A stretch of 64,000 bases of DNA. It comes from a virus. The notes beneath the pieces were generated by a model. It made no database searches and was not told the origin of the DNA. It saw only the letters and a program-made list of their open reading frames with translations. Every line of letters starts with the position of its first letter. Position 1 is the first letter of the stretch. The stretch spans positions 54,887 to 118,886 of IMG/VR virus record IMGVR_UViG_3300034111_000335. One strand, given 5' to 3'. The position numbers and the translations under genes were made by a program. This document shows, piece by piece, positions 5,828 through 32,000 of the stretch.

Positions 5828-5831
5828 TATC

Positions 5832-6212: not shown

Positions 6213-6220
6213 ATAACTAT

Positions 6221-8544: not shown

Positions 8545-8990
8545 AACAGATGATAAAACGCAAAGATGGATCTTACTCACAACGTGGTTTGTGGGATAAC
8601 ATCCGTGCTAACAAAGGATCTGGTAAGAAGCCTACAAAAGAAATGCTTAAGCAAGAGACTAAGATTAAAAAAGAAAGTCGCTTAAAGAAAGCATACATGG
8701 CTAAGGGAGGAAACATTGCTAAGACTACTAAAGGTCCAGGAGCAAACTATCGTCCTACTAAATCAGGAGCAGGTATGACTCAGAAAGGTGTAATGGCTTA
8801 TCGTAGAGCAAACCCTGGATCTAAACTAAGCACTGCTGTTACAGGTAATGTAAAGGCTGGTAGCAAAGCAGCCAATCGTAGAAAGTCTTATTGTGCTAGA
8901 TCATTAGGTCAGTTACGTAGATCTAAACAGTCTACACAGAATGATCCTAATAGCAGAATCAGACAAGCACGTAGACGTTGGAAGTGCTAA
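8541..8990 (+). CDS. Small basic phage protein (RRKSYCARS..RRRWKC family)
   Basis: 149 aa, very K/R-rich. Contains GLWDNIRA and GMTQKGVMAYRRANPGSKL..RRKSYCARS..ARRRWKC, motifs seen in widespread small basic phage proteins. Confidence 0.6.
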   Translation: MKQMIKRKDGSYSQRGLWDNIRANKGSGKKPTKEMLKQETKIKKESRLKKAYMAKGGNIAKTTKGPGANYRPTKSGAGMTQKGVMAYRRANPGSKLSTAVTGNVKAGSKAANRRKSYCARSLGQLRRSKQSTQNDPNSRIRQARRRWKC

Positions 8991-8991
8991 G

Positions 8992-9025
8992 AACTAAATA
9001 AACTAAATAAACTAAAACTAAATAT
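8992..9025 (+). repeat. AACTAAA(T) tandem repeat forming an A-rich leader
   Basis: aactaaataaactaaataaactaaaactaaatat lies immediately before the ATG at 9026. Confidence 0.7.
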
Positions 9026-9181
9026 ATGGCCGCTAAAGCATCTAAATCAAAATCAACTTCTACTGCTTCTAAGTTTAAAGTTAAACCGAAAGTAAGAAGG
9101 AAGGGAGTAGTAGCAAAAACTAAAGCTTCAAAGTTAAAGTCTAGTAAGAACTACTTAAAGAAATCAAGAGGTCAGGGGTAA
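9026..9181 (+). CDS. 51-aa highly basic protein ending KKSRGQG (not in ORF track)
   Basis: Manual translation: MAAKASKSKSTSTASKFKVKPKVRRKGVVAKTKASKLKSSKNYLKKSRGQG*. Preceded by an A-rich leader and followed by a terminator. Confidence 0.75.
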   Translation: MAAKASKSKSTSTASKFKVKPKVRRKGVVAKTKASKLKSSKNYLKKSRGQG

Positions 9182-9204
9182 GCAATTACCCCTTGCTTTT
9201 TTTT
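9174..9204 (+). terminator. Rho-independent terminator
   Basis: AGGGGTAA-GCAA-TTACCCCT stem-loop followed by a T8 tract. Confidence 0.8.
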
Positions 9205-9222
9205 ATTAATCTTGTATATTTG
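9193..9222 (+). promoter_or_regulatory. Bacteroidota-type promoter (TTG..19 nt..TATATTTG)
   Basis: TATATTTG at 9215-9222 matches the -7 consensus TAnnTTTG. TTG at 9193-9195. Upstream of the cargo gene block. Confidence 0.6.
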
Positions 9223-9285
9223 TATAACTAGCTTATTCTCAAGCACTTATTAACATACTAAGTTAATAACATTAATCATTAAAAC

Positions 9286-11760: not shown

Positions 11761-11763
11761 ACC

Positions 11764-16400: not shown

Positions 16401-19400
16401 TCTATGTTAGAAGCACAAGAGTACTTATCAGCAAACAAAGATCACGTTAATCAAGAGTTGTATGATACTGTTCAAGAAAACTTAAACGATAGTTTTGAAA
16501 GAGCACAAGCTGCTTTAGCAGAAGCAACTCCTGAGGTTAGATCTAAGATACTTACAGACTTCTTAGATAAAGTAACTTTAAAGAATACTAAGTACGCTTA
16601 CAATGTAAACTTAGTAAACAGTTTGTTTCCTAGTGCAGAATATACCCAAGAAGAACTAGACAACTCTAGAGAGGAATTAATTCAAAGAAGAGCACAACGT
16701 AGATCTGCACAGGTTCTTGGTACTGAAACTTTATCAGAAGACGAAGAAGAACAAAAAGACCAAAAAGAATTTAACGAAGTAGCAACACAGGCAGCTCAAA
16801 CTCCTGAAGTAGTTGATGAATCAGGAAACTCTAATAGGGATGAGATTTATCTTGCTGGATATAATAGGATGCTTGAGAAAGCAAAAAATAATCCAATGGG
16901 ATTTGATAAAGCATTTGAGTCAGCTGTTAAGAGTAGATTAAGTAGAGTATTTACTCGTGGTACAAAAGACTACAACACTTTAACAAATGCGTTTGATAAC
17001 TTACTAGATAAGAAGATTACTCCTGAAGAGTTTAGAAATATATTTTTATCTGTATGGAGGGACAACAAAGCAGACGAGAAAAAAGCTAATGCTGTCATCT
17101 TTCTTAAGTTTATTGCAGACAGGTATTTTGCAAATGATATGCCTGCAGACAGAGTAGCTTCTACTACTCCTGCAGCTAAGACTACTCCTGTTACCCCCGC
17201 TGCTACTGGTACTACTACTACTACTCCCCCTAAAACGGTTGCTAAGAATGCACCTACTCCTAAACAAGGAGGTAAAGTAGATAGATTAAATGAAGTAGTT
17301 ACACAAGAAGTAAAGGCTAGGATGACTCAGTTAGAGTACTTAGCTTCTCCTCTTAGAAGTATTGCTTTTGAATACAATAGACAGAATGAAAAAAATCAAG
17401 ATCCTGCAGTTCTTAGAAACATCGCTTTACTAGAGAAACTTTCTAGTATTCCAGGTTCTCGCATTAGGGTTATGAATAGAAAACTATTCTTAACCTATCA
17501 TATAATGCAGAGGAATGCTGAAGTAGATCCAACAGAAGAGTTTGAGAAGATTGCAACTTATATCTCTGAAAACCAAATGTCTGTAGATACTTGGAATGCT
17601 TTGAGCGAGGAAGAGAAAGAAAGTTTAATGTCCCCCATAGATGCAATCTTAGGAAAGAACTTCTACGATGAAGGTATGGTTAGATTCTTCTTTACTTCTA
17701 CTGATTCTAAGGGTAAGTTGTATCCTGTAGGTTCTGGTTTGTTTACAAATGCTGAACCTATCATCACTGCTGTAGACGGAGAAGAAAATTTAATAACCAT
17801 AGACGGTCTTCCTATGGAGTTAAATATGCCTACTGTCTCTAAGGGAGAGTATCCTATTAGTGATAGAATTATTGAGGAATACTCTAAGTTAGGAGGATCA
17901 GAACAAGAACTTAGAAATAAAAATGCAGACACATTTGAACGCTTAAAGGCTTTAAAGAAATCTATATCTGCTGCAAACTCTTTTAATGACTCTTTACCTT
18001 ATATGGACTTTGACTTCAATGTTTCATCTGGGGTAATGCTTCCTACACCTATTAACACTTTTGAGAAAGGAAATACTACAGAAGTAGAGAATGTAAAGAA
18101 AGCTAGAATCAGTGACTTCAAGATTATAGAAGATCCTAGAGAGTCTGTCTTTGGTAAAAGTTTTGCTTTTGAAAAAGGTCGTGTATACTTTAATAACAAT
18201 GGTAACCCTACTTTATTAACTAACAACAAGATTGACCCAGCAGAAGCAGATGCATTAGCAGAAGTATATTTCTCTGAAGAGAATCCTTACTTTGCTAGTC
18301 CTAAAGAGGCAGAAGCTTATTTGTTTAACTTAATTAACCAAGTAGACAAGAAAACTCGCTTACATTTCTTTGTAAACGAAGAGTATCCAGGACCAGGTCA
18401 GTTTCCTGTAATCATTGTTAAGTCCGTAGAAACAGGTACAGGATTTCAAAATACTGTTTTAACTAAGGAAGAGTTTGCAAGTACTCTTAAGAACCATTAT
18501 TACAAAGCAAGTCTTGCTTTAATGAAGAGTGGTGAACCTGTCCTAAGATTTAAACCTGAAGGAGCAGTAACTCAGAACTATGCAGAGTATTTAAAAGATA
18601 CTCATAACTTTCCTATCAAAGACGGAGAGGTTGCTAAGCCTGTAAACAAGATAGTATATCTATCTACTGAGTCTTTAGCAGAACAGTTTCCAGAAATAAC
18701 GGGTATTGTACCTAAAGTAGAAACTCCTAAGCAAGTACCAACTACTCCAGTTGTTCCTGCTCAACCTGTTTCAGTTGCCGATACTACTTTACCTGCATTA
18801 CAGACCCTATCTATTCTTTTGTTTCCTAGAGCTTTGGATGCTATAAGTCAGAGTGCTGTAGCAGACGCTCCTCAACTATCAGCAGTTAAGACTGTAGGAG
18901 AGGAATTCTATCAGATGGCAATTAATACAGTTCTTGCAGATCCTAGCAAACTTTCTACTGTGTACTATCCTAAATTAATAAAGAATAATACTGGAGGTAC
19001 TGGAGCTAGTGTGTATTTTGAACTGACTCCGTATGATCCAACAGATCCAGGTGCTTTGGGTTCTCCTTTCTATATTGCTCGAGTACAAATAGCAGAAAGA
19101 GAAAAACCTGTAACTCTTGTTTTAGTAAAACCTAAGTCTCCTTTTGGAGGTAAATTTGGTACTCCTAGATTCCTCGCAGAAATAGACTTAGCAAATCCTT
19201 CTGAAGGTAAGATGTCTTCTACTATACCAAGTGCACCTGTAGCTCCTGTAGTTCCTATAGCTCCCGTAGAACCCCCAGCCACTAAGAAAGCTAGACCTGT
19301 TCTTACAGCAAACACATTTGAAGAACCTCAAGCAGAGGTAACAAGTGAGTCTCCTTTCTTAGATTCTTTACAAGATGAAGAAGAACTTAGAGCAGCAGCT

Positions 19401-19448
19401 AAAGAAGTCAAAGACGCTTGTAAAGGTGACTTAGACGATATTGCTTAA
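13485..19448 (+). CDS. Giant cargo/ejection protein with Gly/Ala-rich membrane-type segments
   Basis: 1987 aa. AGGAMVAQMLPIIATGGLVGGAVKGLAG hydrophobic region, long charged helical region, P/T-rich linkers. The single Cys is residue 1979. Confidence 0.6.
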   Translation: MPDKFTGNVGPYAKPLAGAAPGDMRSRFNELVPMEVQNAYQQKAEIDVLEADRLENQKLLQEQRNVKLNSLKSLYRQAMPNPQFADRAASSVFDRIENAGSKQELNDIYSEIEGIREKAQDSLFLFDGMETFSGIAQSLASTAEGFFFGKETEVNKKKKLLKQANPDLNDVAGSVLPRDLFSEGVNAIKEAEFKSYGQKILTQYESPLALNQALEKARHGSSGAYKDFDAFVAPRLDDAFATKGHYLYREGEEAAQFQKDARNAFANPTYNQVSANFKHDLEKESLSSLKGAVMQKLQGELLKPRDAVDYNADNIKYYRNSLNIIDQRLNSLAGVYKVDKYAPDITLFGEKSSARRSTFKALGDTLPGQWVLDLIGGSDFDKAVFSESFYKPEVITYDAENRPVMSNQFMYTKADGSKGFNYGAIPEAGGAMVAQMLPIIATGGLVGGAVKGLAGAELGWASSAAAGIARGYDALNKVSAFGKELQLADRAATFASVAANTIPHFVEQEKRWGGNYVKRGFAGGIVEASAEAIGFPDVGALKMRPMTTTLASSAMRSAGLELNFGQRLGAYLNNSYEFAKMATKQNAVEALEEELSLIGNSIVQNTLMPEEYALRDREQVTAKTLTDTLVESFAAGLIYSFGTTGAGAYSYTRPENLKNMANWEAANNADLFVAKLSDLKDKGKITDQDFVQGMAKVRNLQGTLKSMVGFDSIRDLKTLNVDKDEQYNLFTNLLRKNELLTIDYDSLSEDEKNTLAKYKIANKISQKEAGKIEEIKKQLAEISTKENPTPAEIEKSVELTLLYQRIKRANIQSVKKGEISEEDKKFFYEKGLLQDADLQFTREDIDKEIASIDKSILKTQKRIDRYANLTDSEKRDVIRQVYDEKIDAVMNIDGTAELVSSMSALKKDLDYLKLKGEEEVPGQIEHKERLLDAYGKKMYDLTNERDEFGQNKIEQKVSTFDAVALEQEGDFYSMLEAQEYLSANKDHVNQELYDTVQENLNDSFERAQAALAEATPEVRSKILTDFLDKVTLKNTKYAYNVNLVNSLFPSAEYTQEELDNSREELIQRRAQRRSAQVLGTETLSEDEEEQKDQKEFNEVATQAAQTPEVVDESGNSNRDEIYLAGYNRMLEKAKNNPMGFDKAFESAVKSRLSRVFTRGTKDYNTLTNAFDNLLDKKITPEEFRNIFLSVWRDNKADEKKANAVIFLKFIADRYFANDMPADRVASTTPAAKTTPVTPAATGTTTTTPPKTVAKNAPTPKQGGKVDRLNEVVTQEVKARMTQLEYLASPLRSIAFEYNRQNEKNQDPAVLRNIALLEKLSSIPGSRIRVMNRKLFLTYHIMQRNAEVDPTEEFEKIATYISENQMSVDTWNALSEEEKESLMSPIDAILGKNFYDEGMVRFFFTSTDSKGKLYPVGSGLFTNAEPIITAVDGEENLITIDGLPMELNMPTVSKGEYPISDRIIEEYSKLGGSEQELRNKNADTFERLKALKKSISAANSFNDSLPYMDFDFNVSSGVMLPTPINTFEKGNTTEVENVKKARISDFKIIEDPRESVFGKSFAFEKGRVYFNNNGNPTLLTNNKIDPAEADALAEVYFSEENPYFASPKEAEAYLFNLINQVDKKTRLHFFVNEEYPGPGQFPVIIVKSVETGTGFQNTVLTKEEFASTLKNHYYKASLALMKSGEPVLRFKPEGAVTQNYAEYLKDTHNFPIKDGEVAKPVNKIVYLSTESLAEQFPEITGIVPKVETPKQVPTTPVVPAQPVSVADTTLPALQTLSILLFPRALDAISQSAVADAPQLSAVKTVGEEFYQMAINTVLADPSKLSTVYYPKLIKNNTGGTGASVYFELTPYDPTDPGALGSPFYIARVQIAEREKPVTLVLVKPKSPFGGKFGTPRFLAEIDLANPSEGKMSSTIPSAPVAPVVPIAPVEPPATKKARPVLTANTFEEPQAEVTSESPFLDSLQDEEELRAAAKEVKDACKGDLDDIA

Positions 19449-19516: not shown

Positions 19517-22500
19517 ATGATTTGTCCTAACTTAAGTGATAGTAAGATACGTGCTGAGTTTACTCACCTTAGTAACCTAGTAGGAGAAGACTTTGCTTAT
19601 TTCGTATGGAATAGGAATGGTGGATACCCTCTAGATAAAACTGTGATAAAAATAAAAGGAAAAGAAACAGTAGTTGACAATCCTTTATATGCTCATTTTT
19701 TAGACTCTTACAAAAATGTAAAGCAAGCTACTTTAGCTACTTCTATTTTTTACAGTAAGAAGTTACATAAGAATAATCCTAACTTCAAAGATCTTCCAGT
19801 CCAAGAGCAGGCAAACATTATACACAACTTTGTACAGGAGAATGAAACTCTAGAGAAAGCTTCTGAAAGAGTAATGAAGTTTATTGCTCAGGGTTTTAAG
19901 GCAGAAAGAATCATAAGCGAAAATCTACAAAAGGTTGCTTTTGATGAAGCACGTAAGATTGCTAACGGTAGACAGTTGTTAGATTCTTATATGTGGTTTA
20001 AGAGTTCTCCTTTATCTCAGCACTTAGACTTTGTGAACATGCAGAACAAAGAAGAAAGTTCTTTTGCTACATGGACTAAGTCTGCAATTACTTTATACAA
20101 AGGATCTGATTACTCTGATCTATACCATGAAGGATGGCATGAATTCACACAACGATTCATGACTAAGGAACAAAGGACTGCTTTATACCAAACGGTTAAA
20201 TCAAGACCTTCTACCGCTACTATTAATGGAGTTCAAGTACCTTACTATGCTTTGACTAATCGTCAGATAGAAGAAGTACTTGCAGAAGAATTTAGAAGGT
20301 TTGCTTTAAATAAGTCTAACCCTGAGGTTATCCCTCCAGTAGTAGAGACTCCTGTAAGAAATGTTTTCCAAAGAATTTGGGACTTCCTTACAAGTTTGTT
20401 TATAGTAAGCCCACAAGAAGTTGCTCAGCAAGATCAAGACGCATTAGTAGAGGGTGTTGTAGGTTTATTTGAGAAACTATATGCTAACCAACTATCTGAG
20501 TATAGACCTAATGCAAGTAACATCTCTGAGAAAGTATTAAATAGAAATAAAGAATTCCAAATTAACTACAAAGCAAAGGACGGAAGAATAATTCCTTTTG
20601 GTTACAATGCTTTAGAGGCTGCTGAAATCTTTAGTGCTATTGACTACTTCTTAGCAGACGCAATGGATAACTTTACAGATGCAGAAGGTAATCCAACTAA
20701 GCTAGAGATGTCTTTCTTAATGGATCCTAAACTTAAGTCTATATATCTACCTAAGTTGTATGAGAGTGCCAGGGATTCTATGTTGCAGTATATCAATGCT
20801 TTACAAGGTGAAGTACCTACTGCTGATGAAGCTACTGCTGCTGTTTTAAACTCTAGAATCAAAAACTTAAAAGGACTTGTAGTACGTACTGCAGAGAATG
20901 ATGGTTGGGCAGAGGTAGTTAAGAATCACCAAAAGAACTCTAAGGGTGGAGTATTCTACTCAGGTAATAACTTAAACACTGCTGACGTAGACAATCGCTT
21001 AGATGAAACTAACGAAGAAAACTTTACTAGGGATAGTAGAAGTTTTGCAAATGCAGAGGATGTAGATCCTATGAGCTTAGCTTCTCCTGAAATTCTACAA
21101 CTTATTAAGACTCTTCCTGGAATCTATTATAATAACAAAGGAGAACTTATTACAGCTACAGGTAACTCTTTTGGTTTACCACAAGCAGGAGACTTCCTTA
21201 GAAATAAAAACTTAGTTTTAAATAAGGTAAGTGGAGCCATTAATTATGAGGAAGCTATTCAGAGACTTAGAAACTCTCTAGATATTGCTCCACAATTGCA
21301 GAACTTAATCAACAGATTACCTAATACCTCTGACACACTTTCGTTGGCTCAGATGGCTTTAAAAGCACAATTTATGCAGTTTGCAGCTATGCCTACTGTG
21401 GCTCCTTACGAAGTTAAGTCTAGGATTAAGTCTACAGCTGCTAAAGTGTCTAAGAATAAGGACAGTGTAATGGAGCACGTAACTTTCTTGAACAATACAA
21501 TGTCTCAAGAAAAACTTATTGAACACTTTGATCAGAACTTTGTAACTAACAGACTTCGTAAGTATAGAATAACTGATCCTACAGAAAGTACATTAGCTGT
21601 ATTTGACTCTGCTGGAATACTTAGCGACTATGCTGCATACAAAGAAGTAGGCTTTACTTCTGATAAAGCAGTGTTTGAATTCTTAAACGATGCTTTTGGT
21701 ATCGACTTAGTTAATAATAAAAACCCTAACTTACTCTTTAATAAAAAAGGAGAAGTACAGCTTAGTGTAAATCCTATCTTTACTCCTACCAACATAAGAA
21801 ACATCAATAAGATTGCAAACAATGCTTTGTTTAAGTTAAATCTTATTTCTATGCTTCCATCAGAAGTAACTGTTCCTACTGTTGGGTCTAATCCTTTGTT
21901 GACTTTATCTTCAGACATATCTAAGCAACTTAAAGCTCAGATAGACGCACTGCCTAATAATCCAAAGAACAAAGAAATTAAAGAGTACTTAGCTAAACAC
22001 TTTAAGGCTGCAACACTAGACAACGAAAGAACTTCTGCTTTCTCTACGTTTGAAAAGATTTACAATATCTCTAACTCTGCTTCTTATATTAGTCCTGAGG
22101 GTAATTTAGAATATGCAATTAGAGAATGGAATCACTTACTAGATACAGTTTCTAAGATCAACAGTGTACAGACTAAGTTTGATCTTACAGGACATTTGAA
22201 TCCTGAAACAAATAATTTTATTGAACACAGTATCATTATGAAGCGGATGTTCCGTGCTGATAATGGTGAAAGGAGACTTACTAATTCAGGAGAGGACGTT
22301 GAACTAAGAGTTACTAATATGTCTGGTTACACTATAGGAACTACTATGGGAGACAAGACAACTAACCTTACTGGAGATGGAAAACTACTACAAGACTTTA
22401 TAGCTTTTAAGAAAGATGCTGTAGTAGAAAATATGAGAGTAGGAGCTAAGAGTAGTTCTTTTGCTACATTCCTAAATGGTAACAAGTTAGACAGAGAGTA

Positions 22501-25500
22501 CTTTCCTTTAGAAGAATATAATTTTAAAAACAAAGCAGTATTGTCTTCCTCTTTCATAGCTCAGATGCAACAGTATTTGTACTTTGAAGCTATGCGTATG
22601 TTTGATGATAAGGCTAAGTCCAACAAGAAAGAAATCTTAGGATCTGATTTTATCATATTCAAAGACATGATTCCTGACTCTATTCAAAGTAGAGTTAAGG
22701 AAGCTGTGGCTAATGCTGAAAGTAAAGCAGCTCTTAAAGGTGCTTTAACAGGAATGTTTGGCATGTCTAGTAACTCTCTTTACGGAGAATTCAAGAATGC
22801 TTTAACAGATTACTTTGCAAACTCTGTACAAACTCTTAGAACTTCTTTTAAAGAAATCTTAAGCAAAGGAGAAAACAAAGACTTAGCTCAACAATTTAAC
22901 CGACTCTATCCAAAAAATAGTGGATCAGCGTATACGGATGAAGAGATTGATTCTAATCTTATGCACTTTACAACTAACTATTATGTGCATCAGGTAGAAC
23001 TACTCCACTTAACTGTAGGAGATCCTTCTAACTTCCAAATTAAAAACTCAGATTGGAGAGGATTGTTTAAACGCTTAGGTGCTACTATCTCTCCAGGAAA
23101 ACAACCTAGACTTGACTCTCAAGATATAAACTCTTGGAACACTAGTTCTAATGGTAGCCTCTCTAGAGGACTTGAAGAAATTCAAAGAGGTACAGGAAAG
23201 TCCAGACAATACGATAATAACCTTAACTACGTACAGTACGAAGATGTAAAGACTTTTGACTACTTAGATGAAAGTACAAAAGAAAGCATCAGAGAAAGTA
23301 TGAGAGAAAACTACTTGAGTGCATTAGCTACTGTTAAGGGTGCTCTTACTCCTGAGGACATAAGCAGAGAAACTGCTAAGATTGACAAAAACCTTGATGC
23401 TGTATTCGAACAAGGAAAAGAATCAGATGCTCAGGCTTATGCAGGTTTAGATTTTATTCGTTTCTACCTTAACTCTGTTGGGGAATGGCCTAATGACTTA
23501 GAACAAGCATATAAACACGAGTTAGAAGTATTCAAGGCAATTAAAAAATATAGACAGTCAAACTCAGATCAAGACAAAGCTGAAGTCTATTCCTTGATTG
23601 CAAAAAGTAATCTAGGTATTTTGACATCTTTAAAGCTTGGATACTATGGTTCTCCTACAGACTTTACTAAATACAACGTATTAGGTAAGTACTCTGTGTT
23701 TCCATTAAGTCCTTCTATGGTTTTTGACACAGACTTAGAAGATGTTATGATGGACTACTTAGACAAAGGTGTAGACTTAGCGACTTTCTCTAGCGGTAAT
23801 AAAATGGCTCTTCCTACAAAAGAACTTCCCTACTATGAAAAGAAAGTAGTAAAGGGTAAATCGGAGTATGTAGAAGGAGACAACGGGCAGTTAAAGATTG
23901 GTAAAGTAGATCCTGAAGCCGTAATTAGACTTCCTATTGACGGTCTTCGTAGACAACAGTACATTGCTCCTAAAACAAAGAATGAAGCTACTTTATCTAC
24001 ACAGATGGTTAAACTTATCTTTAGTAACTTTTATGTTGGAGGAGATATTAATCCTGCTTATGCTCACCTAGAAGAAAAGATTAACAATCTTCAAGAAGCA
24101 TTTATTGATAATATTAAAGTTATCGTAGATGTAGAGAAAGCAAAAATCTACTCTAAGATTGGTGCTACAGTAGGTGCTGATGGTAACATAACAGGTATCA
24201 ATACTGCAGACTTTACTAGCTGGTTGCATAGTGAGTTTGATAAGAAAGACGTACCTACTTCTGTGTATTCTTTCTTAAGACCTACTGTTAATAATTCTTT
24301 TGTATTCTCTGTAGATGCAGGAGTACAACGTTCTTTGATAGATCAGATTATTTCTTCTGCTTTATCTAAGCGTGTATTGAGACCTAAGTTATTTGGTGAA
24401 GCTTACATACAGTTAGCTTCTACTGGTTTTAACAAATTAGGTACTCGTATGAAGAAGCCTACTACTTCTCAATTGAAATCTATAGCTAAGGGCTTCAATG
24501 TAAGCGGTCTAAGAGACTATCGTATTGAGAATGGAGTAGTACAGCCTGCGGATGTTTTAATTCCATTTAATCCAAAGAAACACACTCCCCTATTAAACTT
24601 AGAGTGGAATGGTGCACCTATCCAAACACTAGATAGATTAAACCAAGCCTTAGAGGATGATGCTTGGGTAGCAGAACACTCTGCTAAGATTAGTATAGTA
24701 GGGGTACGTATTCCTGTTCAGGGATTAAACTCTATGGAACACTTTAGAGTACGTAGGTTCTTATCTAATGTAGGAGGTCCTGTAATGGTTGTTCCTCCTT
24801 CTATTGTAACTAAGTCTGGATCGGATTTTGACATAGATAAATTGTTTATGTATGAGCCAGAGTTAGACGATAACGGAAACTTAGTATCTAATTCTAGACT
24901 AAGTGACCCTGAGTTTAGAACACAAGTCATAGATAATATCTTGGCAAAGAATGAATTCTTAGCTCTTAGAGCAGATAGTTTACAAACTTTGTTTGCCTCT
25001 GCTGACTTTAAAGAAGCGGGCTTAGTATCTAAAGAAATTGAAACTCTTAAGAAGTTTATAGACGATTTAAAAGAAGCTAAGAATTCTGGAGACCAAGATG
25101 CAATTACAGAATTTAAAGAAAACATTGGTCCGTTAAACATGAAGTTAGGTATTGCTATTGAGAGATTTAAAACTCTTCGTAGTCAAGACCCTAAAGTAGT
25201 AGAGATGTTACAGAATTTAGTTAGTGCTAATGAAATACTTGCTGATATGAAAGACATTTCAGAGAAAGCTCTTAAGGGTTCTGCTTCTAATAATATGATC
25301 TCTGTAATAGCTTCTGTGTTGTCTGAGCCAAGTATCTTTACAGAATTTACCAAGCCTAACACTAACGTTATTCTTCCTGCTATTGCAGAAGAATATCAAA
25401 AACTAAAAGGTAAAGAGAGTCGTATTTCTTCTAGTGCTATGTTCTTGATTGAAACTTCTGTTAGAATCTTTACAGAGAATAACTTAGGTAAGAAGTCTTT

Positions 25501-28054
25501 GGGTGTAGATGCTAAGACTAACGCTTTGCATAAACTATTCCAACAAACTGGACTTAGATTTAAAAGTAATCCAGAAGAAGTAGACATAAATAAGTTCTAC
25601 TTACTTAAGTCAAACAAGAATAAAAATACTAAAGAGATTGAGTTAGGTGGTTTGTATGACGCTGATGGAGTAAATCTTATATCTGACGTAATCAACGAGT
25701 TTATTAACGGTCACGTAGATATTGAAAACGAAGACTGGATTAACTTCTTTAACGCAGATAGAGAAAGAACACCTTTAATTCTTCAGATGGTTCTTAACGG
25801 TACTCCTGTAGATGAAGCTATTTTATTGGTTAACCAACCTATCATCCAACATTATATTAGATCTAGTAAGATTACTAAAGTAGGTAAAGCATTAGGACAG
25901 AAACCTGCTGACTTGTTTAAGGACTACATTATTCCTGCACTAAACTTTTTAGGAGAAAAACCAGTCTTTGTAGAAGGTCAGATAGACGAAGCTCTTACTG
26001 TAGAAAAGGTTCTTAGCACACCTAGTATTACAAGTGCTTTATCTGCAGAAAACTTTAACAAAGAAAACTATCCTCCTAACCCTAATGTAATTAGAAGTTC
26101 TTACGAAAAGATCAAAGCTAATAGAAATAGTAAAGAAGGAACTGAAGCACTAAGAGCACAGTTAGCATTTATAACTCAGTACTATGTTGTTAAGCAACAG
26201 AACCAAATTTTATTGTCGTTAACCAGTAACATAGATTTCAACACAGCTAACTATCGTATTAATACAGAATTCTATGCTACTTCTACAGGTATTAATGAAG
26301 CGAGAGAAAACTTTAACAGTGAGGCAATTGATAAAATTCTTACAAACAGTGTTGTTTCTCCATTTAACGTCCTTGAAGCCAATCAATCTGTAGTAGATCA
26401 AGTGTGGGACTTCTTTTCTCTTCCGCTAGTTAAGGATTATTTATATAAAGTTAAGCAAGAGTATGGTAAGTATTGGAGTAGAGACAAGACAGTTAGAAAC
26501 TTTAACCAACTTATGAACTCTATGATGCTGTCTTTCTTTCAGAATATTCCAGAACTTAAACCTTTGTATGCTAAGTATAGTGCTGAATCAGGTCTATTAG
26601 ATATTAAGTCTGGAAATAACTTACGTGCTAGGTTTGACAGAATATTTAACAACACAGAAGATCCAAAGATAAAAGCCTTTGCCTCTAATAATATTATCCT
26701 AAATAACTTTACTTCTATCATGGTAGAAGGAACTAGCATGTTCTATCCTGGTATGCTAACTAACGAGAAGGATGTAGACACAGTAAACGCAGGACAAAAA
26801 GACTTCTCTGATGGACTTAATCATCCTAATCCAGAAGTAAGAGGATTCTTTAGTGATCTAGCTAATGCTGTTTTATTAGGACAAGGATCTAACATTAGGT
26901 ATCGTTCTATCCATAACTTTATTCCTATGGAAGCTCAGACTGAAAGTATGATTGAATTGTCTATTGTTCTTAAAAAGATTAAAGAGTCTATAGATAACCT
27001 AGAGACTGCAGAATTCTTAAAGGATCTTTTAAATAAGACTACAAAGACTCATGCATCTATCTACTGGCCAAGTAAACAAAACAAAGTAGTAGTTACTAAT
27101 AAGATGAAAACTTTCCCTGACTTTAGACAAGTAATAGAAGAGAAGCCTCAGATTACTAGTAACGATGACTTAGATGAAGCTATGATCTATGCACAAGAAT
27201 CTTCTAGTGATGCTCCTGAACCTGACTTCAATAGTATGGATGAGGAGTTTATCATAGCTAAGAAGCTTGAGGAAAAGAAAGCAAAGGCAACTGTTCCTCC
27301 ACAGAAAATTACTACTCAATCATCTACTATTGTTAAAATAGATTTCCAGGAAGAACCTACATCAGGATATAAAAATAGAACTATTAAGAATGCAAGTGCT
27401 GATGCTACAATAGCAATAGCCGTTGACTTTAATACAGCTGGAGAGAAACTAACCAAGTCATCTGTAGAAAGCCAGGGTAAGAAATACATAGCCAGAAACC
27501 TTGACGAGATGTTTGTTCCTGTAGATCCGTTTAACGCAAGTAAAGGATATGAGCTCAATGACAAGGCAATATTTAATATGGCAGAAAGTATTGTAGCTGA
27601 TTTGAACAACGCAAATGCCAGGACGCTTAACATAGCCGGTAATGGTATCTACACAATGAAAGGAAAATATCCTCAAGCTTTGTTAGATGGTGCCATGGAA
27701 CGTTTGCTGGAATATGTCACTCTATCTGATAACTTGAAAAACAAGATTGTTTCAGTTAGAAGTGGTGGGCAAACTGGGATAGATGAAGCAGGAGCTAAAG
27801 CAGGTATCAAACTGGGTATTCCTACTACTGTTCTTGCTCCTAAAGGATGGAAATTTAGAAATGAATCTGGTACAGATATATCTAATGAACAAGCATTTAA
27901 AGCTAGATTTGTTTCTACTCAACCATCTACTCTACCTAAAAATCTAACACTTAAGAACGGAGTTTCCTACCCAATAACAGATATAGACATACCCTTACTA
28001 GAAAGCTTAGGGTATAGTGCAAAAGAAATGAACGAAGTATTTAATAACTGCTAA
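19517..28054 (+). CDS. Virion-packaged single-chain two-barrel RNA polymerase (crAss-like), with N-terminal zincin motif and C-terminal SLOG domain
   Basis: 2845 aa. RIPVQG..GSDFDIDKL catalytic DxDxD (about 24824), KRLGATISPG, DAQAY. HEGWH..EEVLAEEF near the N-terminus. SGGQTGIDEAG near the C-terminus. Confidence 0.9.
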   Translation: MICPNLSDSKIRAEFTHLSNLVGEDFAYFVWNRNGGYPLDKTVIKIKGKETVVDNPLYAHFLDSYKNVKQATLATSIFYSKKLHKNNPNFKDLPVQEQANIIHNFVQENETLEKASERVMKFIAQGFKAERIISENLQKVAFDEARKIANGRQLLDSYMWFKSSPLSQHLDFVNMQNKEESSFATWTKSAITLYKGSDYSDLYHEGWHEFTQRFMTKEQRTALYQTVKSRPSTATINGVQVPYYALTNRQIEEVLAEEFRRFALNKSNPEVIPPVVETPVRNVFQRIWDFLTSLFIVSPQEVAQQDQDALVEGVVGLFEKLYANQLSEYRPNASNISEKVLNRNKEFQINYKAKDGRIIPFGYNALEAAEIFSAIDYFLADAMDNFTDAEGNPTKLEMSFLMDPKLKSIYLPKLYESARDSMLQYINALQGEVPTADEATAAVLNSRIKNLKGLVVRTAENDGWAEVVKNHQKNSKGGVFYSGNNLNTADVDNRLDETNEENFTRDSRSFANAEDVDPMSLASPEILQLIKTLPGIYYNNKGELITATGNSFGLPQAGDFLRNKNLVLNKVSGAINYEEAIQRLRNSLDIAPQLQNLINRLPNTSDTLSLAQMALKAQFMQFAAMPTVAPYEVKSRIKSTAAKVSKNKDSVMEHVTFLNNTMSQEKLIEHFDQNFVTNRLRKYRITDPTESTLAVFDSAGILSDYAAYKEVGFTSDKAVFEFLNDAFGIDLVNNKNPNLLFNKKGEVQLSVNPIFTPTNIRNINKIANNALFKLNLISMLPSEVTVPTVGSNPLLTLSSDISKQLKAQIDALPNNPKNKEIKEYLAKHFKAATLDNERTSAFSTFEKIYNISNSASYISPEGNLEYAIREWNHLLDTVSKINSVQTKFDLTGHLNPETNNFIEHSIIMKRMFRADNGERRLTNSGEDVELRVTNMSGYTIGTTMGDKTTNLTGDGKLLQDFIAFKKDAVVENMRVGAKSSSFATFLNGNKLDREYFPLEEYNFKNKAVLSSSFIAQMQQYLYFEAMRMFDDKAKSNKKEILGSDFIIFKDMIPDSIQSRVKEAVANAESKAALKGALTGMFGMSSNSLYGEFKNALTDYFANSVQTLRTSFKEILSKGENKDLAQQFNRLYPKNSGSAYTDEEIDSNLMHFTTNYYVHQVELLHLTVGDPSNFQIKNSDWRGLFKRLGATISPGKQPRLDSQDINSWNTSSNGSLSRGLEEIQRGTGKSRQYDNNLNYVQYEDVKTFDYLDESTKESIRESMRENYLSALATVKGALTPEDISRETAKIDKNLDAVFEQGKESDAQAYAGLDFIRFYLNSVGEWPNDLEQAYKHELEVFKAIKKYRQSNSDQDKAEVYSLIAKSNLGILTSLKLGYYGSPTDFTKYNVLGKYSVFPLSPSMVFDTDLEDVMMDYLDKGVDLATFSSGNKMALPTKELPYYEKKVVKGKSEYVEGDNGQLKIGKVDPEAVIRLPIDGLRRQQYIAPKTKNEATLSTQMVKLIFSNFYVGGDINPAYAHLEEKINNLQEAFIDNIKVIVDVEKAKIYSKIGATVGADGNITGINTADFTSWLHSEFDKKDVPTSVYSFLRPTVNNSFVFSVDAGVQRSLIDQIISSALSKRVLRPKLFGEAYIQLASTGFNKLGTRMKKPTTSQLKSIAKGFNVSGLRDYRIENGVVQPADVLIPFNPKKHTPLLNLEWNGAPIQTLDRLNQALEDDAWVAEHSAKISIVGVRIPVQGLNSMEHFRVRRFLSNVGGPVMVVPPSIVTKSGSDFDIDKLFMYEPELDDNGNLVSNSRLSDPEFRTQVIDNILAKNEFLALRADSLQTLFASADFKEAGLVSKEIETLKKFIDDLKEAKNSGDQDAITEFKENIGPLNMKLGIAIERFKTLRSQDPKVVEMLQNLVSANEILADMKDISEKALKGSASNNMISVIASVLSEPSIFTEFTKPNTNVILPAIAEEYQKLKGKESRISSSAMFLIETSVRIFTENNLGKKSLGVDAKTNALHKLFQQTGLRFKSNPEEVDINKFYLLKSNKNKNTKEIELGGLYDADGVNLISDVINEFINGHVDIENEDWINFFNADRERTPLILQMVLNGTPVDEAILLVNQPIIQHYIRSSKITKVGKALGQKPADLFKDYIIPALNFLGEKPVFVEGQIDEALTVEKVLSTPSITSALSAENFNKENYPPNPNVIRSSYEKIKANRNSKEGTEALRAQLAFITQYYVVKQQNQILLSLTSNIDFNTANYRINTEFYATSTGINEARENFNSEAIDKILTNSVVSPFNVLEANQSVVDQVWDFFSLPLVKDYLYKVKQEYGKYWSRDKTVRNFNQLMNSMMLSFFQNIPELKPLYAKYSAESGLLDIKSGNNLRARFDRIFNNTEDPKIKAFASNNIILNNFTSIMVEGTSMFYPGMLTNEKDVDTVNAGQKDFSDGLNHPNPEVRGFFSDLANAVLLGQGSNIRYRSIHNFIPMEAQTESMIELSIVLKKIKESIDNLETAEFLKDLLNKTTKTHASIYWPSKQNKVVVTNKMKTFPDFRQVIEEKPQITSNDDLDEAMIYAQESSSDAPEPDFNSMDEEFIIAKKLEEKKAKATVPPQKITTQSSTIVKIDFQEEPTSGYKNRTIKNASADATIAIAVDFNTAGEKLTKSSVESQGKKYIARNLDEMFVPVDPFNASKGYELNDKAIFNMAESIVADLNNANARTLNIAGNGIYTMKGKYPQALLDGAMERLLEYVTLSDNLKNKIVSVRSGGQTGIDEAGAKAGIKLGIPTTVLAPKGWKFRNESGTDISNEQAFKARFVSTQPSTLPKNLTLKNGVSYPITDIDIPLLESLGYSAKEMNEVFNNC

Positions 28055-28056
28055 AA

Positions 28057-29043
28057 ATGATTTGCCCTAACAAAAATACACCTGAGTGGAAAGCTATATC
28101 AAATGCTCATCCTACACTAGCATATTACCTGTGGAATAAGTACGAGGGTAATATACCTTCGTACTATACACAATCCGTAGGTAAGGAAGGAGTAACAGAA
28201 CTGTTTGAATCTACTCCTGAGTTAGCTAATATAGGTACACCTCAACAATACTCTCAGTACTTAGATTCTATCTTTCCTGAAAGTAAAGTAAAAGATATTG
28301 TTTATCATGGTACTCATACTAGATTCAATAAGTTTGATAAAAGTTTATCTGGAAGTAAAACAAAAGCCTCTATTAACGGTAAAGGGTTTTTCTTTTCAAA
28401 CAGTTTAGGTATAGCACAAGGATATAGACAAAGTTTAGAGCAGTCCAATATTTATAACGATGTTATATTTTATTACTATTTTAAAAGAGATCTGGCTAAT
28501 AAAAATATTAAAGATGTAACTCAAGAAGAGTGGCAAGAAATAGTATTAAATTATTTTGGATCTGAAGACTTAAATGTTCAATATTTACAAAGACAGTCTT
28601 TAGATAAAACAAAAGAACTTTTTGAAAAATTTAAAAATGATAAACAATTTAATACTGTTCAATATGTAGATGAACTTGATTTTTCAGAATATTTAAAAGA
28701 TGATTCTATAGTTTATTCAGCATTATTAGAAGTAAATAATCCTTTGGTTGTTGAAGGAAATAATTACCAAATGCTATCTATTGTTAAAAAAGAAATAGAA
28801 AAATTAGAAGAAAATAATGATTCTATTATATTTAACAATGTAGAAGATGGAATGTCTGGTAGTTATAGAGGTGTTGCCAATACTTATACAGTATTTGAAC
28901 CAGAACAAATTCACATACTAGGAAACAAACAAGACATAGAAGGGTTTAAACAATTTGTAAGCAACTCTAACCCTATGACTTCACCAGATATGTCTAACCT
29001 AGAAAATACTGAGTTCGAAGTGATTAAGTGTAGGGAAGATTAA
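28057..29043 (+). CDS. ADP-ribosyltransferase-like (ART-PolyVal type) protein
   Basis: IVYHGT..FNKFDKS..GKGFFFS..AQGY, LEVNNPL, DSIIFNNVED, YTVFEPEQI follow the ART-PolyVal pattern. Confidence 0.7.
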   Translation: MICPNKNTPEWKAISNAHPTLAYYLWNKYEGNIPSYYTQSVGKEGVTELFESTPELANIGTPQQYSQYLDSIFPESKVKDIVYHGTHTRFNKFDKSLSGSKTKASINGKGFFFSNSLGIAQGYRQSLEQSNIYNDVIFYYYFKRDLANKNIKDVTQEEWQEIVLNYFGSEDLNVQYLQRQSLDKTKELFEKFKNDKQFNTVQYVDELDFSEYLKDDSIVYSALLEVNNPLVVEGNNYQMLSIVKKEIEKLEENNDSIIFNNVEDGMSGSYRGVANTYTVFEPEQIHILGNKQDIEGFKQFVSNSNPMTSPDMSNLENTEFEVIKCRED

Positions 29044-29099: not shown

Positions 29100-32000
29100 A
29101 TGTCTAAAGGCTGTGTTATAAAATATACTAATCCCGTAACAGGGATGAATCAAACTTCTGTACTTGCTTATACTCTATCACAAGTAGGATATAGTAACGA
29201 GCAAGCTATAGACTTAGTTAAGCAAGGAAGTCTATATTCTAAAAAAGATGGATACAATACCTGGCCTAAACCTCTTAACAAGGATAAGAGTAGGTTTGGA
29301 AATTTTGTAGAAATAGACTCAGACAACTTACTTAGAAACGTAGGTATTGATTCGTTAACCTCCGATCAAGTTAAGTATCTTAGAGCAGCTCAGGATTTAT
29401 TTGAAGATGTTCAAGTAAGAATAGATAATCCTATTAATCTTACTACTCTAGTAGAGATGGCAAACTACATTAAAAACAATGGACTTGCCTCTGTAAGTAT
29501 AGAGATTGTTAATCCAGAAGCACCAGTATTAGAAAGGATGTACAAAGTATATCCTATACCTTTTACTGAACTAAACATGGTATATCTTTCTAGTTTTATT
29601 GAAGGAGAAGTATTTAATAAACGTCTAGTAAATGGAGAAGAGTCACGTATAGAGTTCTTAAAGAAGTACGTAGACTTTCAAAATCCTGATGTCTATGATA
29701 CTTTAGTTAAGATTCTAAACGACCCAGAGACTCCTGACTACGAGAAGTTTGTGATTAAAAAACTTTTACCTATTATAGACTTGATCCCTACAATCGGTTT
29801 AGACTTTTTTACAGGTAAAGACTTACAAAACAGAGATGTAATTCCTATGGGAGAGTATGTTCCTGAACTACATAAAATTAAACTAAATGTATTTGGATTA
29901 AAGAATAGAGGACTAGATTATTCTAGACGTGTTATTCTCCACGAGATTCTACACTCTGTTCTATCATCTACGTTACAAAATCCTACAAGCGAGATAGACA
30001 AAGAACTTGTAAATAGTCTTAAGCCTATCCTTGCCTACTATCAACAGAAATATTCTACAAAAAAAAGAACAGACACTTACTATGGTTTTAAAGACATACA
30101 CGAGTTTGTATCAGAGTTTTTTACTAATCCTGATTTCCGCAACACTCTAGAGTCGGAAGAACCAAACTGGTTTATTAAAATTATAGATGCTATCTTTAAG
30201 TTCTTTGGTAAGAAGTTAAATCTAAATCAAAATCCTAATAGCCTAGAGAATATAGATCTATTGATGGAAAACTTCTTCAATGAGATACTCCTTGCTCAAG
30301 ATATTAATACTAGTATTATATATACTAAGTTTGATTCTATACCCTATACTATGAGTGTGCCTCAAATGCTTGAGATGGATACGTTTGTAGAGGAGAATTC
30401 AGACTTCCTTACTCGTTTAGATGAACTATTACAGGACGAAAATCTAATCAACTGGAGTAAGGTAAGAGATCAAGCAGAGATTCTAGGAGTAAACGTAGGC
30501 AGTGTATTAAGAACTAAGGACATGTTCGTAGAGATTTCTGCAGCTGAGGCTAAAGAGTCTTTTAAATCTTTAGTAAGTTTCTTCCATGATAGCTCTAAGT
30601 ACTTAGCAAGTGTTCGTACTTCTCTTAACAAGATGTCTTCTGATCCTACAATAACCAAAGATCAACTGTTTAGACAAGCTTACCATGCTAAAGAGTTAGG
30701 AGAGCAGTATACAAACCTAGCACAAAATTATCGTAGAGTTATGGGAGACCTAGGAGCAAACACTATTTTGGGTCAACAGTTGTTAAACTTAGAAGCTACT
30801 GCAGATTCTTTGTCTAAGGCTTATTTTAACAACGCTGTAGAGGCTTTAGCTATTAAGTTGGCAGATGAGTTCGCACCACAGACAAAAGACGCTCAGAAGC
30901 GAATCCAAGACAATATAGATAGGTTTAAAGTTTCATTAGCAAGTGCACAAAAACTAGGAAACACTAGACTTATAAAACTTACCGAAGATCGTATTAGGAA
31001 TGAAGAAGCAAGAATGTCTACCCTAGCTACTAAGACTAACTTACTAAAAGCACTTAGAGGTCAGATAAAAGACGTAGGAAACTTCTCTCTTTTCTTAGAG
31101 TCAGCAGGATTATCAGGAAACATTCTTACAGGTACTGTAGGAGGTATGATTGCTAATCAGTTTGATACAGCTAACGTAAAGGCTCAAGCAATGGAAGTTA
31201 AATTAAAGAAGATTGCAGATGAGTTACAAAACCACCTAAAGAGTAAAGGGATGGGAGTAAATACTGCATTCGACTTTGAAAATGTATTTGGACGTTTCAT
31301 TAAGAAAGTAGAGATTGTAGAAAACAAGAATGGAAAAATCTCTAAGAGAGAAACACTAGTTCTGTTGAGTGAGATGGATGAAGTTCGTTACAACAATCTT
31401 ATAACTAAACTTAAAGCAGAGTTAAGAGAATTAAAACAAACTAAGGTACAAGACTCTACAGTAAAAGATTTAATCAGAGCTAAAGAAGAAGAGATTCGTA
31501 GAACAAGATCTGAGTTTGAAGTACAGCCTTTTGAAGATATCTACTATCAAATTCAGAACATGCTTAGTGCAGAAGCTAAAGAAGCTAGAGACTTAATCTT
31601 TGAAGAGATGAATAAGATCCAAGTAGGAAGTCTTACAGAAGAAAACTCAGAAGAACAGTTAGATAAATTAGATGACTTAAAAGAAGAACTAGACTTACTA
31701 GAATCTGATTACGATAAAAACAAAAACTTAAAAGATGAAGCAGGACTTAGAATTGCTGCTAACATTAGAGAATGGAAGAAGAGTAGAGCTGCTGCAGAAC
31801 TTTATACTTACACTATCAGTAAAGAAAACCAAGCACTTTTTGACTCTCAACTAAATTCTAAAAAAACAGCTTACGATAAAGCAGCTGCTGACTATCAACA
31901 AGCAGTAGACGACAATGCTGATGCTGATACCTTAGACTACAAGAAACAAACAGTAGATTACTATAAGAAACAGTTTGAGTTGTGGAAAGCAAACAACTGC

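What the first reader, a model, noticed from the sequence alone, without database searches (positions are those of the whole stretch)
19517..28150. Shared MICPN..AY..WN..G N-terminal module on two otherwise unrelated proteins
Seen: the RNAP begins MICPNLSDSKIRAEFTHLSNLVGEDFAYFVWNRNGGYP. The ART-like protein begins MICPNKNTPEWKAISNAHPTLAYYLWNKYEGNIP (DNA atgatttgtcctaac vs atgatttgccctaac). The rest of the two proteins is unrelated. The preceding proteins end in short helical tails that carry the Cys (EVKDAC, EMNEVFNNC). Inference: this ~35-aa module is a portable docking or coupling domain that captures the previous protein's C-terminal Cys helix and addresses cargo to the capsid.
Basis: partly seen in the sequence, partly recalled or inferred. 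Interest (0 to 1): 0.8.

Follow-up and report, generated by a model that had tools for sequence, protein, structure and literature searches.

The report
Cysteine head connector on phage cargo proteins
Two unrelated proteins that this crAss-like phage packs into its particle start with the same small cysteine-bearing module, which probably links each one to the cysteine-ended tail of the protein encoded just before it.

Summary
The 2845-aa virion RNA polymerase protein (19517-28054) and the 328-aa ART-PolyVal protein (28057-29043) share only a ~40-aa N-terminal module, M-x-C-P-N ... A-Y-x-x-W.

The module is a widespread family with no Pfam match. A profile search found 978 cluster representatives at E<=1e-3. 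In 146 of the best 150 it starts at residue 1-6, and the first Cys is at residue 3-7.

In 40 of 49 non-redundant cases the gene just upstream ends with a Cys in its last 10 residues.

The module is one head type within a broader rule. The giant cargo proteins are almost Cys-free except at the ends that face the next protein:
- Window: 1987 aa (Cys 1979); 2845 aa (Cys 3 and 2845); 328 aa (Cys 3 and 325); 1928 aa (Cys 5 and 967).
- The same rule holds in phi14:2, crAss001, crAss002 and cr118_1.

A solved virion gives a precedent. In cyanophage A4, gp27 Cys1715 is disulfide-bonded to gp26 Cys5 (PMC12002296).

Best reading, untested: the module is a portable head connector for head-to-tail disulfide links, and the ART protein is a plug-in link. 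Docking and capsid addressing are not shown.

This scan has noted the terminal-cysteine chain before on other crAss-like genomes. I found no paper describing it for crAss-like phages.

The parts
19517..19636 (+). Head module of the RNAP protein (residues 1-40, Cys3 at 19523-19525)
   Evidence: profile E 2.3e-15. Its closest heads are in gut Suoliviridae: cr118_1 is 42% identical over 81 aa.
28057..28161 (+). Head module of the ART protein (residues 1-35, Cys3 at 28063-28065)
   Evidence: profile E 9.8e-19. AlphaFold2 model of residues 1-55 with a 36-row alignment: pLDDT about 80-89 over residues 1-40, helices 9-17, 22-28 and 35-38.
13485..19448 (+). First link: 1987-aa protein with a single Cys, residue 1979 (19419-19421), and no N-terminal Cys
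19517..28054 (+). Second link: 2845-aa polyvalent virion RNAP protein (zincin HEGWH at aa 204, DFDID at aa 1770, cpYpsA at the C-terminus). Only two Cys: residue 3 and the last residue 2845 (28049-28051).
28057..29043 (+). Third link: 328-aa ART-PolyVal protein. Only two Cys: residues 3 and 325 (29029-29031).
29100..34886 (+). Last link: 1928-aa homologue of phi14:2 g065 and crAss001 gp49. It has a different head (MSKGC, Cys5 at 29112-29114), one internal Cys (967) and no C-terminal Cys.
   Evidence: g065 E 1e-16; gp49 E 5e-10.

Best explanation
The ~40-aa module is one family of N-terminal head connectors on the particle-packed cargo proteins of crAss-like phages. It is a small three-helix unit that presents a conserved Cys two to six residues from the N-terminus.

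That Cys most likely pairs with the Cys in the last few residues of the protein encoded just upstream. The link is most likely a disulfide formed in the virion, possibly after the upstream C-terminal helix has docked. The four proteins of 1987, 2845, 328 and 1928 aa would then be joined head-to-tail in gene order. The ART protein, which has a head connector and a Cys tail, would be a plug-in link.

Shown: the module family, its strict N-terminal position, the Cys-tail rule, the loss of internal Cys, and one solved disulfide of this geometry in another phage. Inferred: the disulfide in crAss-like phages, any docking, and any role in ordered ejection or co-packaging.
For: 1. Family and position. 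978 representatives at E<=1e-3. The module starts at residue 1-6 in 146 of the best 150, and the first Cys is at residue 3-7 in all 146.

2. Upstream Cys tails. 40 of 49 upstream ORFs have a Cys in the last 10 aa and 15 end in Cys. In the sample chosen by N-terminal pattern alone the count is 21 of 28. Of the 40 pairs, the tail Cys is followed by 0-2 residues in 36 and the head Cys is preceded by 2 residues in 33.

3. Junction table over all non-redundant gene breaks in the loci (upstream C-terminal Cys against downstream N-terminal Cys): [[103,25],[47,191]], odds ratio 16.7, Fisher p 4e-30.

4. Loss of internal Cys.
- The window chain has 7 Cys in 7088 aa, and 6 of them lie within 10 residues of an end (P about 8e-12; about 94 expected at the 1.33% of the window's minus-strand genes).
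- In the loci, 34 proteins with Cys at both ends have 28 internal Cys in 51,485 aa (0.054%), against 0.52% in proteins with no terminal Cys.
- Database-wide, 51 module proteins of >=800 aa have 20 internal Cys in 86,586 aa, and 37 have none.

5. Cultured and classified phages.
- phi14:2: g067 has one Cys, its last residue; g066 has Cys 3 and 2179 of 2180; g065 has Cys 3 only.
- crAss001: gp47 has Cys 2339 of 2341; gp50 has Cys 5, 1334 and 2404 of 2412; gp49 has Cys 5 only. gp47 lies on the opposite strand.
- crAss002, cr118_1, cr10_1 and cr108_1 follow the rule.

6. Where links are fused there is no Cys pair at the mapped fusion point. This holds for the cr118_1 4946-aa protein and for crAss002 gp33.

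7. Break points move relative to domains. The zincin region is at the C-terminus of crAss001 gp47 but at the N-terminus of the window RNAP protein. The Cys pair stays at the break.

8. Precedent. In cyanophage A4 the C-terminal helix of gp27 inserts into gp26 and is stabilised by a Cys1715-Cys5 disulfide (passages of PMC12002296). In the A-4L record gp27 (1717 aa) has only Cys 1715 and gp26 (1114 aa) has only Cys 5.

9. Disulfides exist in the crAss001 virion, between tail hub and ring proteins (passages of PMC10172136).
Against: - No direct evidence of a disulfide or of binding in any crAss-like phage.
- 9 of the 49 module ORFs lack a Cys in the last 10 residues of the ORF just upstream. In 3 of these (L016, L037, L097) a small inserted gene intervenes, and the ORF before it ends in a Cys tail. 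In L110 the Cys lies 24 residues from the end. L089, L108 and L090 are plain exceptions. L059 and L105 were not resolved.
- The tails share almost nothing except the Cys (alignment A2, mean column identity 13%), so a specific docking surface is not evident.
- 47 junctions have a downstream N-terminal Cys without an upstream tail Cys, and 25 the reverse.
- cr131_1 and cr108_1 carry more internal Cys.
- The window's 1928-aa protein has a spare Cys at 967, and the 149-aa protein at 8541-8990 ends in a Cys with no partner head.
- Assembly takes place in a reducing cytoplasm, so the time and place of oxidation are unknown.
- A4 proteins show no sequence similarity to the crAss proteins, so the precedent is an analogy only.
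Confidence: 0.6

Rival explanations
1. The module is a non-covalent docking or co-packaging domain only. The cysteines would be secondary, for example a shared metal site or a redox sensor, rather than a disulfide.
For: About 40 residues beyond the Cys are conserved, with a confident three-helix model. The upstream tails often look like amphipathic helices. Phage assembly occurs in a reducing cytoplasm.
Against: Only the Cys is shared across unrelated head and tail types. Two Cys alone do not make a usual metal site, and no conserved His or further Cys lies nearby. The removal of internal Cys is what is expected when thiol chemistry matters. The A4 structure shows a real disulfide in this geometry.
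Confidence: 0.15
2. The module is an N-terminal packaging or ejection signal, in the manner of the T4 capsid targeting sequence (recalled), and acts independently of the neighbouring protein.
For: It is strictly N-terminal and sits on varied cargo bodies.
Against: Other proteins found in virions lack it: crAss001 gp45, gp46 and gp47 (passages of PMC10172136; sequences) and the window's first link. Orthologous gp49/g065 bodies carry different heads. This reading does not explain the matched tail Cys.
Confidence: 0.1
3. The terminal cysteines form other disulfides, not an ordered chain. These could be homotypic (head-head or tail-tail) or bonds to portal or tail proteins.
For: Chemistry alone does not enforce tail-to-head pairing. 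The tails are too diverse to show a specific fit. The crAss001 tail proteins do use disulfides.
Against: Tail Cys and head Cys co-occur at the same gene break (odds ratio 16.7). The first links lack a head Cys and the last links lack a tail Cys, so the counts balance. A4 shows the tail-to-head pairing.
Confidence: 0.1
4. The pattern is a feature of nucleic acid or translation at gene junctions, such as peptidyl-tRNA hopping from one Cys codon to the next, or coupling signals.
For: The Cys codons flank very short intergenic gaps, mostly -4 to +24 nt. In the window TGC TAA is followed 11 nt later by TGC.
Against: crAss001 gp47 and gp50 lie on opposite strands yet keep the tail Cys and head Cys. 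The pair persists across inserted genes. An ATG stands a few codons (2-6) before the head Cys in the cases parsed. Tails run 0-8 residues past the Cys. The second residue of C-x-N varies among P, I, V, A and Y, so the conservation is at protein level.
Confidence: 0.02

Closest known systems
Cyanopodophage A4 / Anabaena phage A-4L ejection proteins gp27 and gp26 (PNAS 2025, PMC12002296; passages read)
   Same: Consecutive genes. The upstream giant protein has a single Cys three residues from its C-terminus, after a long helix, and the downstream protein has a single Cys at residue 5. The virion structure shows the helix docked in gp26 and a Cys1715-Cys5 disulfide.
   Different: There is one link, not a chain of three. 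The phage is of a different family with a pentameric pre-ejectosome. BLAST finds no similarity to the crAss proteins, and the module profile does not match gp26 (E 0.13, 0.6 bits).
RNA polymerase block of cultured crassviruses: phi14:2 g067-g066-g065 and crAss001 gp47-gp50-gp49
   Same: These are homologous bodies that were found in virions (passages of 10.1101/2020.03.07.982082, and of PMC10172136). They show the same terminal-only Cys pattern.
   Different: Their heads are of other types (MACKIEN.., MSCKLQT.., MSKRC.., MAKKC..). None carries the C-P-N...E-W-K module. The papers' text has no occurrence of 'cysteine'.
Cysteine suppression in the ejection operon of Schitoviridae: N4 gp50 and DEV gp71-73 (PMC11445570; passages read)
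   Same: Giant ejected proteins, including a virion RNA polymerase, are nearly free of Cys. The paper explains this by passage through the periplasm.
   Different: N4-like proteins have no Cys at all. Here single Cys are kept at facing termini.
Polyvalent proteins of phages and conjugative elements (Iyer et al. 2017, PMC5512222; passages read)
   Same: ART-PolyVal, zincin peptidase, N4-type RNAP and cpYpsA domains combined in large proteins that are delivered with the DNA.
   Different: The text has no occurrence of 'cysteine', and the passages I saw describe no N-terminal Cys module. The paper's domain inventory is in external files that I could not see.
Docking domains of modular polyketide and non-ribosomal peptide synthases (recalled, not tested)
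   Same: This is a resemblance in how it works: a C-terminal helix of one subunit pairs with an N-terminal module of the subunit encoded next, and this fixes their order.
   Different: Those are non-covalent, enzymatic assembly lines with no known homology to this module.

Membership tests
A4-type tail-to-head disulfide link between consecutive ejection proteins | The upstream protein has a Cys within a few residues of its C-terminus | tested here: met
   Window Cys 1979 of 1987, 2845 of 2845 and 325 of 328. A-4L gp27 has Cys 1715 of 1717.
A4-type tail-to-head disulfide link between consecutive ejection proteins | The downstream protein has a Cys within about 5 residues of its N-terminus | tested here: met
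   Window Cys 3, 3 and 5. A-4L gp26 has Cys 5.
A4-type tail-to-head disulfide link between consecutive ejection proteins | A disulfide is observed in the virion | not testable with these tools
   It has been seen only in A4 (PMC12002296). No structure or mass spectrometry data exist for the crAss termini.
A4-type tail-to-head disulfide link between consecutive ejection proteins | Sequence homology to A4 gp26 or gp27 | tested here: not met
   BLASTP found no hit at E<=0.01, and the module profile scored E 0.13 against gp26. The case is therefore analogous, not a family member.
Pfam ART-PolyVal (PF18760), for the 328-aa protein | The score exceeds the curated cut-off | tested here: met
   42.9 bits against a cut-off of 31.2, E 1.1e-10, residues 81-286. 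Catalytic residues were not examined.
crAss-like virion RNA polymerase (phi14:2 gp66 type), for the 2845-aa protein | DFDxD motif and similarity to gp66 and gp50 | tested here: met
   DFDID at residue 1770. BLASTP gives crAss001 gp50 E 2e-13 and phi14:2 g066 E 6e-8. The motif's role is taken from the abstract of 10.1101/2020.03.07.982082.
Any described domain family, for the head module | A match in Pfam, in PDB sequences or among PDB folds | tested here: not met
   Pfam on 23 module sequences at E<=10 gave only 3 stray single hits, the best at E 0.057. The PDB profile search gave a best E of 0.15. Foldseek gave a best E of 6.5.
T4-type capsid targeting sequence (recalled) | An N-terminal peptide sufficient for packaging and removed by the prohead protease | not tested
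   No tool bears on this.

The most novel reading that the evidence does not exclude
crAss-like phages string their ejected proteins into one covalent thread through terminal disulfides. In this phage the thread would be about 7,000 residues: first link, RNA polymerase, ADP-ribosyltransferase, last link.

The stubs beyond each Cys are only 0-2 and 2 residues long, so the thread could pass the tail as a near-linear polymer. It would then fall apart in the reducing cytoplasm. Portable head and tail connectors would let any effector be spliced into the train by gene insertion.
Probability: 0.4. Interest if true: 0.85.

Novelty: new variant of a known kind. Interest (0 to 1): 0.7.

Why it matters
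How podoviruses get megadalton protein cargo through a narrow tail, and in what order, is an open question for crassviruses, the most abundant phages of the human gut. The crAss001 structure paper says the order probably depends on how the proteins are packed and on their interactions with one another (passages of PMC10172136).

A terminal Cys rule gives a concrete hypothesis. It is kept from marine phi14:2 to gut crAss001 and has a solved one-link precedent in A4. It can be tested cheaply in two cultured phages.

The module itself is an undescribed domain family of about a thousand clusters. It marks chain members and plug-in effectors such as the ART protein in metagenomic contigs.

Tried and rejected
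Complex prediction. The last 45 aa of the RNAP protein against the first 55 aa of the ART protein, each with an alignment (A2, A3), scored 0.25 against a mark of 0.32. The result is no verdict and counts neither way.

Searches that gave nothing for the module:
- Pfam on the 23 module sequences.
- PDB sequence profile.
- Foldseek against PDB with the AlphaFold2 model.
- Pfam on 10 long module-bearing proteins, which gave only one cpYpsA hit.

GenBank phages. Megablast with 11 kb of the window and tblastn with the ART protein found nothing. tblastn with module peptides found only cr108_1.

Translational hopping or coupling was considered and rejected (see rivals).

Fossil Cys pairs inside fused giant proteins were looked for and not found. 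Internal Cys are scattered singles.

Co-variation of tail and head was not pursued. Tail type PEGLP..C goes with head MPC.IEIK in 4 of 4 cases seen, but shared descent explains that equally well.

Literature. Searches found no paper on terminal cysteines in crAss cargo proteins. The library lacks most subscription journals.

Supplements were not opened. The external domain files of Iyer 2017 and the extended mass spectrometry tables of the crAss001 paper might bear on whether the module or the termini were noted before.

Caveat on the background figure. Its 25% background for C-terminal Cys is inflated by other chain junctions in the same loci. I rely on the 2x2 table instead.
Full report
WHAT IS THERE

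The window is the second half of a complete 118,886-bp viral record with terminal repeats. Its plus strand carries a run of giant genes: 13485-19448 (1987 aa), 19517-28054 (2845 aa), 28057-29043 (328 aa) and 29100-34886 (1928 aa).

- The 2845-aa protein has a zincin HEGWH at residue 204, the DFDID motif of crAss-like virion RNA polymerases at residue 1770 and a cpYpsA domain at its C-terminus. It matches crAss001 gp50 and phi14:2 g066.
- The 328-aa protein is an ART-PolyVal domain protein.
- The 1928-aa protein is a homologue of phi14:2 g065 and crAss001 gp49.

Both proteins begin M-I-C-P-N and share A-Y-x-x-W-N about 25 residues later. The start 15-mer occurs twice in the window, against none in 100 shuffles. 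BLASTP aligns only the first 31-36 residues. The two upstream proteins end ...KDACKGDLDDIA and ...VFNNC. A profile finds only these two copies in the whole genome.

THE MODULE IS A LARGE, UNDESCRIBED, STRICTLY N-TERMINAL FAMILY

Loci fetched through the ART protein showed related starts on many giant ORFs. I aligned 23 of them (A1) and searched 1.84 billion representative proteins.

- 978 proteins match at E<=1e-3 and 31 at E<=1e-10. In 146 of the best 150 the module begins at residue 1-6.
- The four exceptions: three are repeat proteins without the Cys, and are partial spurious matches. The fourth (P0005) has two internal tandem copies behind a hydrophobic N-terminus.
- In all 146 the first Cys is at residue 3-7.
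- The consensus is M-x(1-4)-C-P-N-x-N-x-x-E-W-K-x-L-V-x-x-x-G-E-x-x-A-Y, followed by G-x-V-P.
- Pfam, PDB sequences and Foldseek give nothing.
- AlphaFold2 models three short helices with pLDDT about 80-89 over residues 1-40.

THE MODULE IS PORTABLE

I examined 55 module-bearing representatives of >=600 aa, with the head cut off. BLAST to reference bodies sorts them as follows:
- 28 are g065/gp49-like.
- 8 contain the RNAP body.
- 4 contain the ART domain.
- 15 match none of my references.

Close relatives of crAss001 gp49 that carry the module match GenBank gp49 homologues only from residue ~123 onward. The cultured phages' gp49 and g065 have other heads. So the same head sits on unrelated bodies, and orthologous bodies carry different heads.

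THE UPSTREAM CYS TAIL IS THE RULE

- In the ART-selected loci, 24 of 27 upstream ORFs have a Cys in the last 10 residues.
- In a sample chosen only by a DNA pattern for M-x-C-P-N-x-N-x-x-E-W-K (29 loci, 28 with an upstream ORF), the count is 21 of 28, and 10 end in Cys.
- Over all loci plus the window, made non-redundant, there are 50 module ORFs. One was mis-parsed, which leaves 49. Of these, 40 have the tail Cys and 15 end in Cys. Intergenic gaps are mostly -4 to +24 nt.
- Of the nine exceptions, three have one small gene inserted between, and the ORF before it ends in a Cys tail (L016, L037, L097). In one (L110) the Cys lies 24 residues from the end. Three are plain exceptions (L089, L108, L090). 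Two (L059, L105) I did not resolve.

THE MODULE IS ONE HEAD TYPE IN A BROADER RULE

Many junctions with quite different N-termini (MACQIKR.., MPCKIEIK.., MSCTIKL.., MGCTYEF..) also show ...C(x0-5)-stop followed by M-x(1-3)-C.

Over all non-redundant same-strand junctions, the table of upstream tail Cys against downstream head Cys is [[103,25],[47,191]], with odds ratio 16.7 and p 4e-30. Gene strings read, for example, ?[955|0]C C[2557|0]C C[203|0]C C[2146|1]-. Many breaks in such strings are inserted small genes. Two of these I checked are a GIY-YIG/NUMOD3 endonuclease and a ferritin-like protein.

THE BODIES ARE STRIPPED OF CYSTEINE

Cys positions in the window chain:
- 1987 aa: 1979 only.
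- 2845 aa: 3 and 2845.
- 328 aa: 3 and 325.
- 1928 aa: 5 and 967.

That is 7 Cys where about 94 would be expected at the 1.33% of the window's minus-strand genes. Six of the 7 lie within 10 residues of an end (P about 8e-12).

In the loci, proteins with Cys at both ends have 0.054% internal Cys and those with a head Cys only have 0.074%. Proteins with neither have 0.52%. Database-wide, 51 module proteins of >=800 aa hold 20 internal Cys in 86,586 aa, and 37 hold none.

THE RULE HOLDS IN NAMED CRASSVIRALES

- phi14:2: g067 has one Cys, its last residue. g066 has Cys 3 and 2179 of 2180. g065 has Cys 3 only.
- crAss001: gp47 has Cys 2339 of 2341. gp50 has Cys 5, 1334 and 2404 of 2412. gp49 has Cys 5 only. 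DNA polymerase and ribonucleotide reductase have 12 and 17 Cys.
- crAss001 gp47 is on the opposite strand from gp50-gp49, so the pattern belongs to the proteins and not to the junction DNA or its translation.
- crAss002 gp32 has one Cys, at 2019 of 2020. gp33 has M-S-C at residues 33-35 of its annotated start.
- In cr118_1 a 4946-aa protein ends ...HCKGE and is followed by a 1667-aa protein whose only Cys is residue 3 of a module of the window's RNAP subtype.
- cr10_1 and cr108_1 follow the rule too.
- cr131_1 keeps the junction pair but has more internal Cys. It also has in-frame stops under table 11.

FUSIONS AND MOVED BREAK POINTS

In cr118_1 the g067-like and g066-like parts are fused. In crAss002 the g066-like and g065-like parts are fused. 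No Cys pair lies at either mapped fusion point, and internal Cys in giant proteins are scattered singles.

The zincin region is C-terminal in crAss001 gp47 but N-terminal in the window's RNAP protein. So the break point moves relative to the domains while the Cys pair stays at the break.

WHAT IS KNOWN

- Cys suppression in ejected proteins is described for N4-like phages, with passage through the periplasm as the rationale (passages of PMC11445570).
- The crAss001 structure paper reports disulfides between tail hub and ring proteins. It says the cargo must partly unfold and that the order of ejection probably depends on packing and on interactions between the proteins. Its text has no occurrence of 'cysteine' (passages).
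- The phi14:2 preprint says the three proteins are fused in some phages. Its text has no occurrence of 'cysteine' or 'disulfide'.
- After I had reached the chain reading, a look-up showed that this scan had noted the same chain on other crAss-like genomes. It also pointed to the A4 paper.
- I checked that paper. The C-terminal helix of A4 gp27 inserts into gp26 and is stabilised by a Cys1715-Cys5 disulfide (passages). In the A-4L record gp27 (1717 aa) and gp26 (1114 aa) each have exactly that one Cys. There is no sequence similarity to the crAss proteins.

READING

The module is a portable N-terminal head connector. The conserved functional atom is the Cys. The most likely chemistry is a tail-to-head disulfide, as solved in A4, here repeated at three junctions.

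The stubs are very short: 2 residues before the head Cys in 33 of 40 pairs, and 0-2 after the tail Cys in 36 of 40. That fits a near-linear thread, but this is inference.

Whether the ~40 conserved residues dock the preceding helix is open. The tails share little beyond the Cys, and the complex prediction gave no verdict. Capsid addressing is untested, and other packaged proteins lack the module.

VERDICT

This is a new variant of a known kind: a one-link precedent exists in A4, and Cys-free ejection proteins are known in N4-likes. The module family, and the multi-link rule in Crassvirales, are not in print as far as could show.

Noticed in passing
L009:10715-11215; L069:9198-9863; also seen in L016, L022, L037, L049, L015, L066 and L070: Small genes sit between a Cys tail and the next Cys head in related cargo operons. 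One type is a ferritin-like protein of ~163-167 aa (Pfam Ferritin, E 2e-19). The other is a GIY-YIG/NUMOD3 homing endonuclease. A ferritin gene inside a cargo operon is unexplained.
   Followed up: partly
window 8541-8990: A 149-aa DUF6321 protein ends in Cys, its last residue. The next gene (824 aa, no Cys) has no head Cys, so this terminal Cys has no partner.
   Followed up: no
window 19517-20400, compared with L112 (crAss001 gp47): The zincin region at the N-terminus of the window's RNAP protein matches the C-terminal part of crAss001 gp47. The split between links therefore lies at a different domain boundary in the two phages.
   Followed up: partly
L117 (cr131_1, NC_055902): The cargo genes have many in-frame stops under table 11 (11 to 53 per gene), which suggests stop-codon reassignment. 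This phage also has more internal Cys in its chain proteins.
   Followed up: no
L119 (crAss002 gp33): The annotated start lies 32 codons before an M-S-C that fits the head rule, and 170 nt separate it from gp32. The true start may be the later Met.
   Followed up: no
P0005 (database protein, 282 aa): This is the only clear internal occurrence of the module. Two tandem copies, the first with C-P-N, lie at about residues 172-260 behind a hydrophobic N-terminal region.
   Followed up: no
L111 (cr108_1, MT774385), locus positions 3396-14986: The 2967-aa protein has no terminal Cys. A 290-nt gap precedes a 798-aa ORF annotated with a non-ATG start. This may be a broken or mis-called junction.
   Followed up: no
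window 19640-19720; L120 from about 17250; heads listed: A second motif, roughly A-P-N-G-x-x-S-x-L-[FY]-x-x-L, follows several unrelated head types 10-50 residues after the Cys. It may be part of a larger shared N-terminal region.
   Followed up: no
window 5832-6212: A 126-aa DUF5856 protein (E 3e-21) lies among the cargo genes. Similar small genes recur after chain links in L025 and L059.
   Followed up: no
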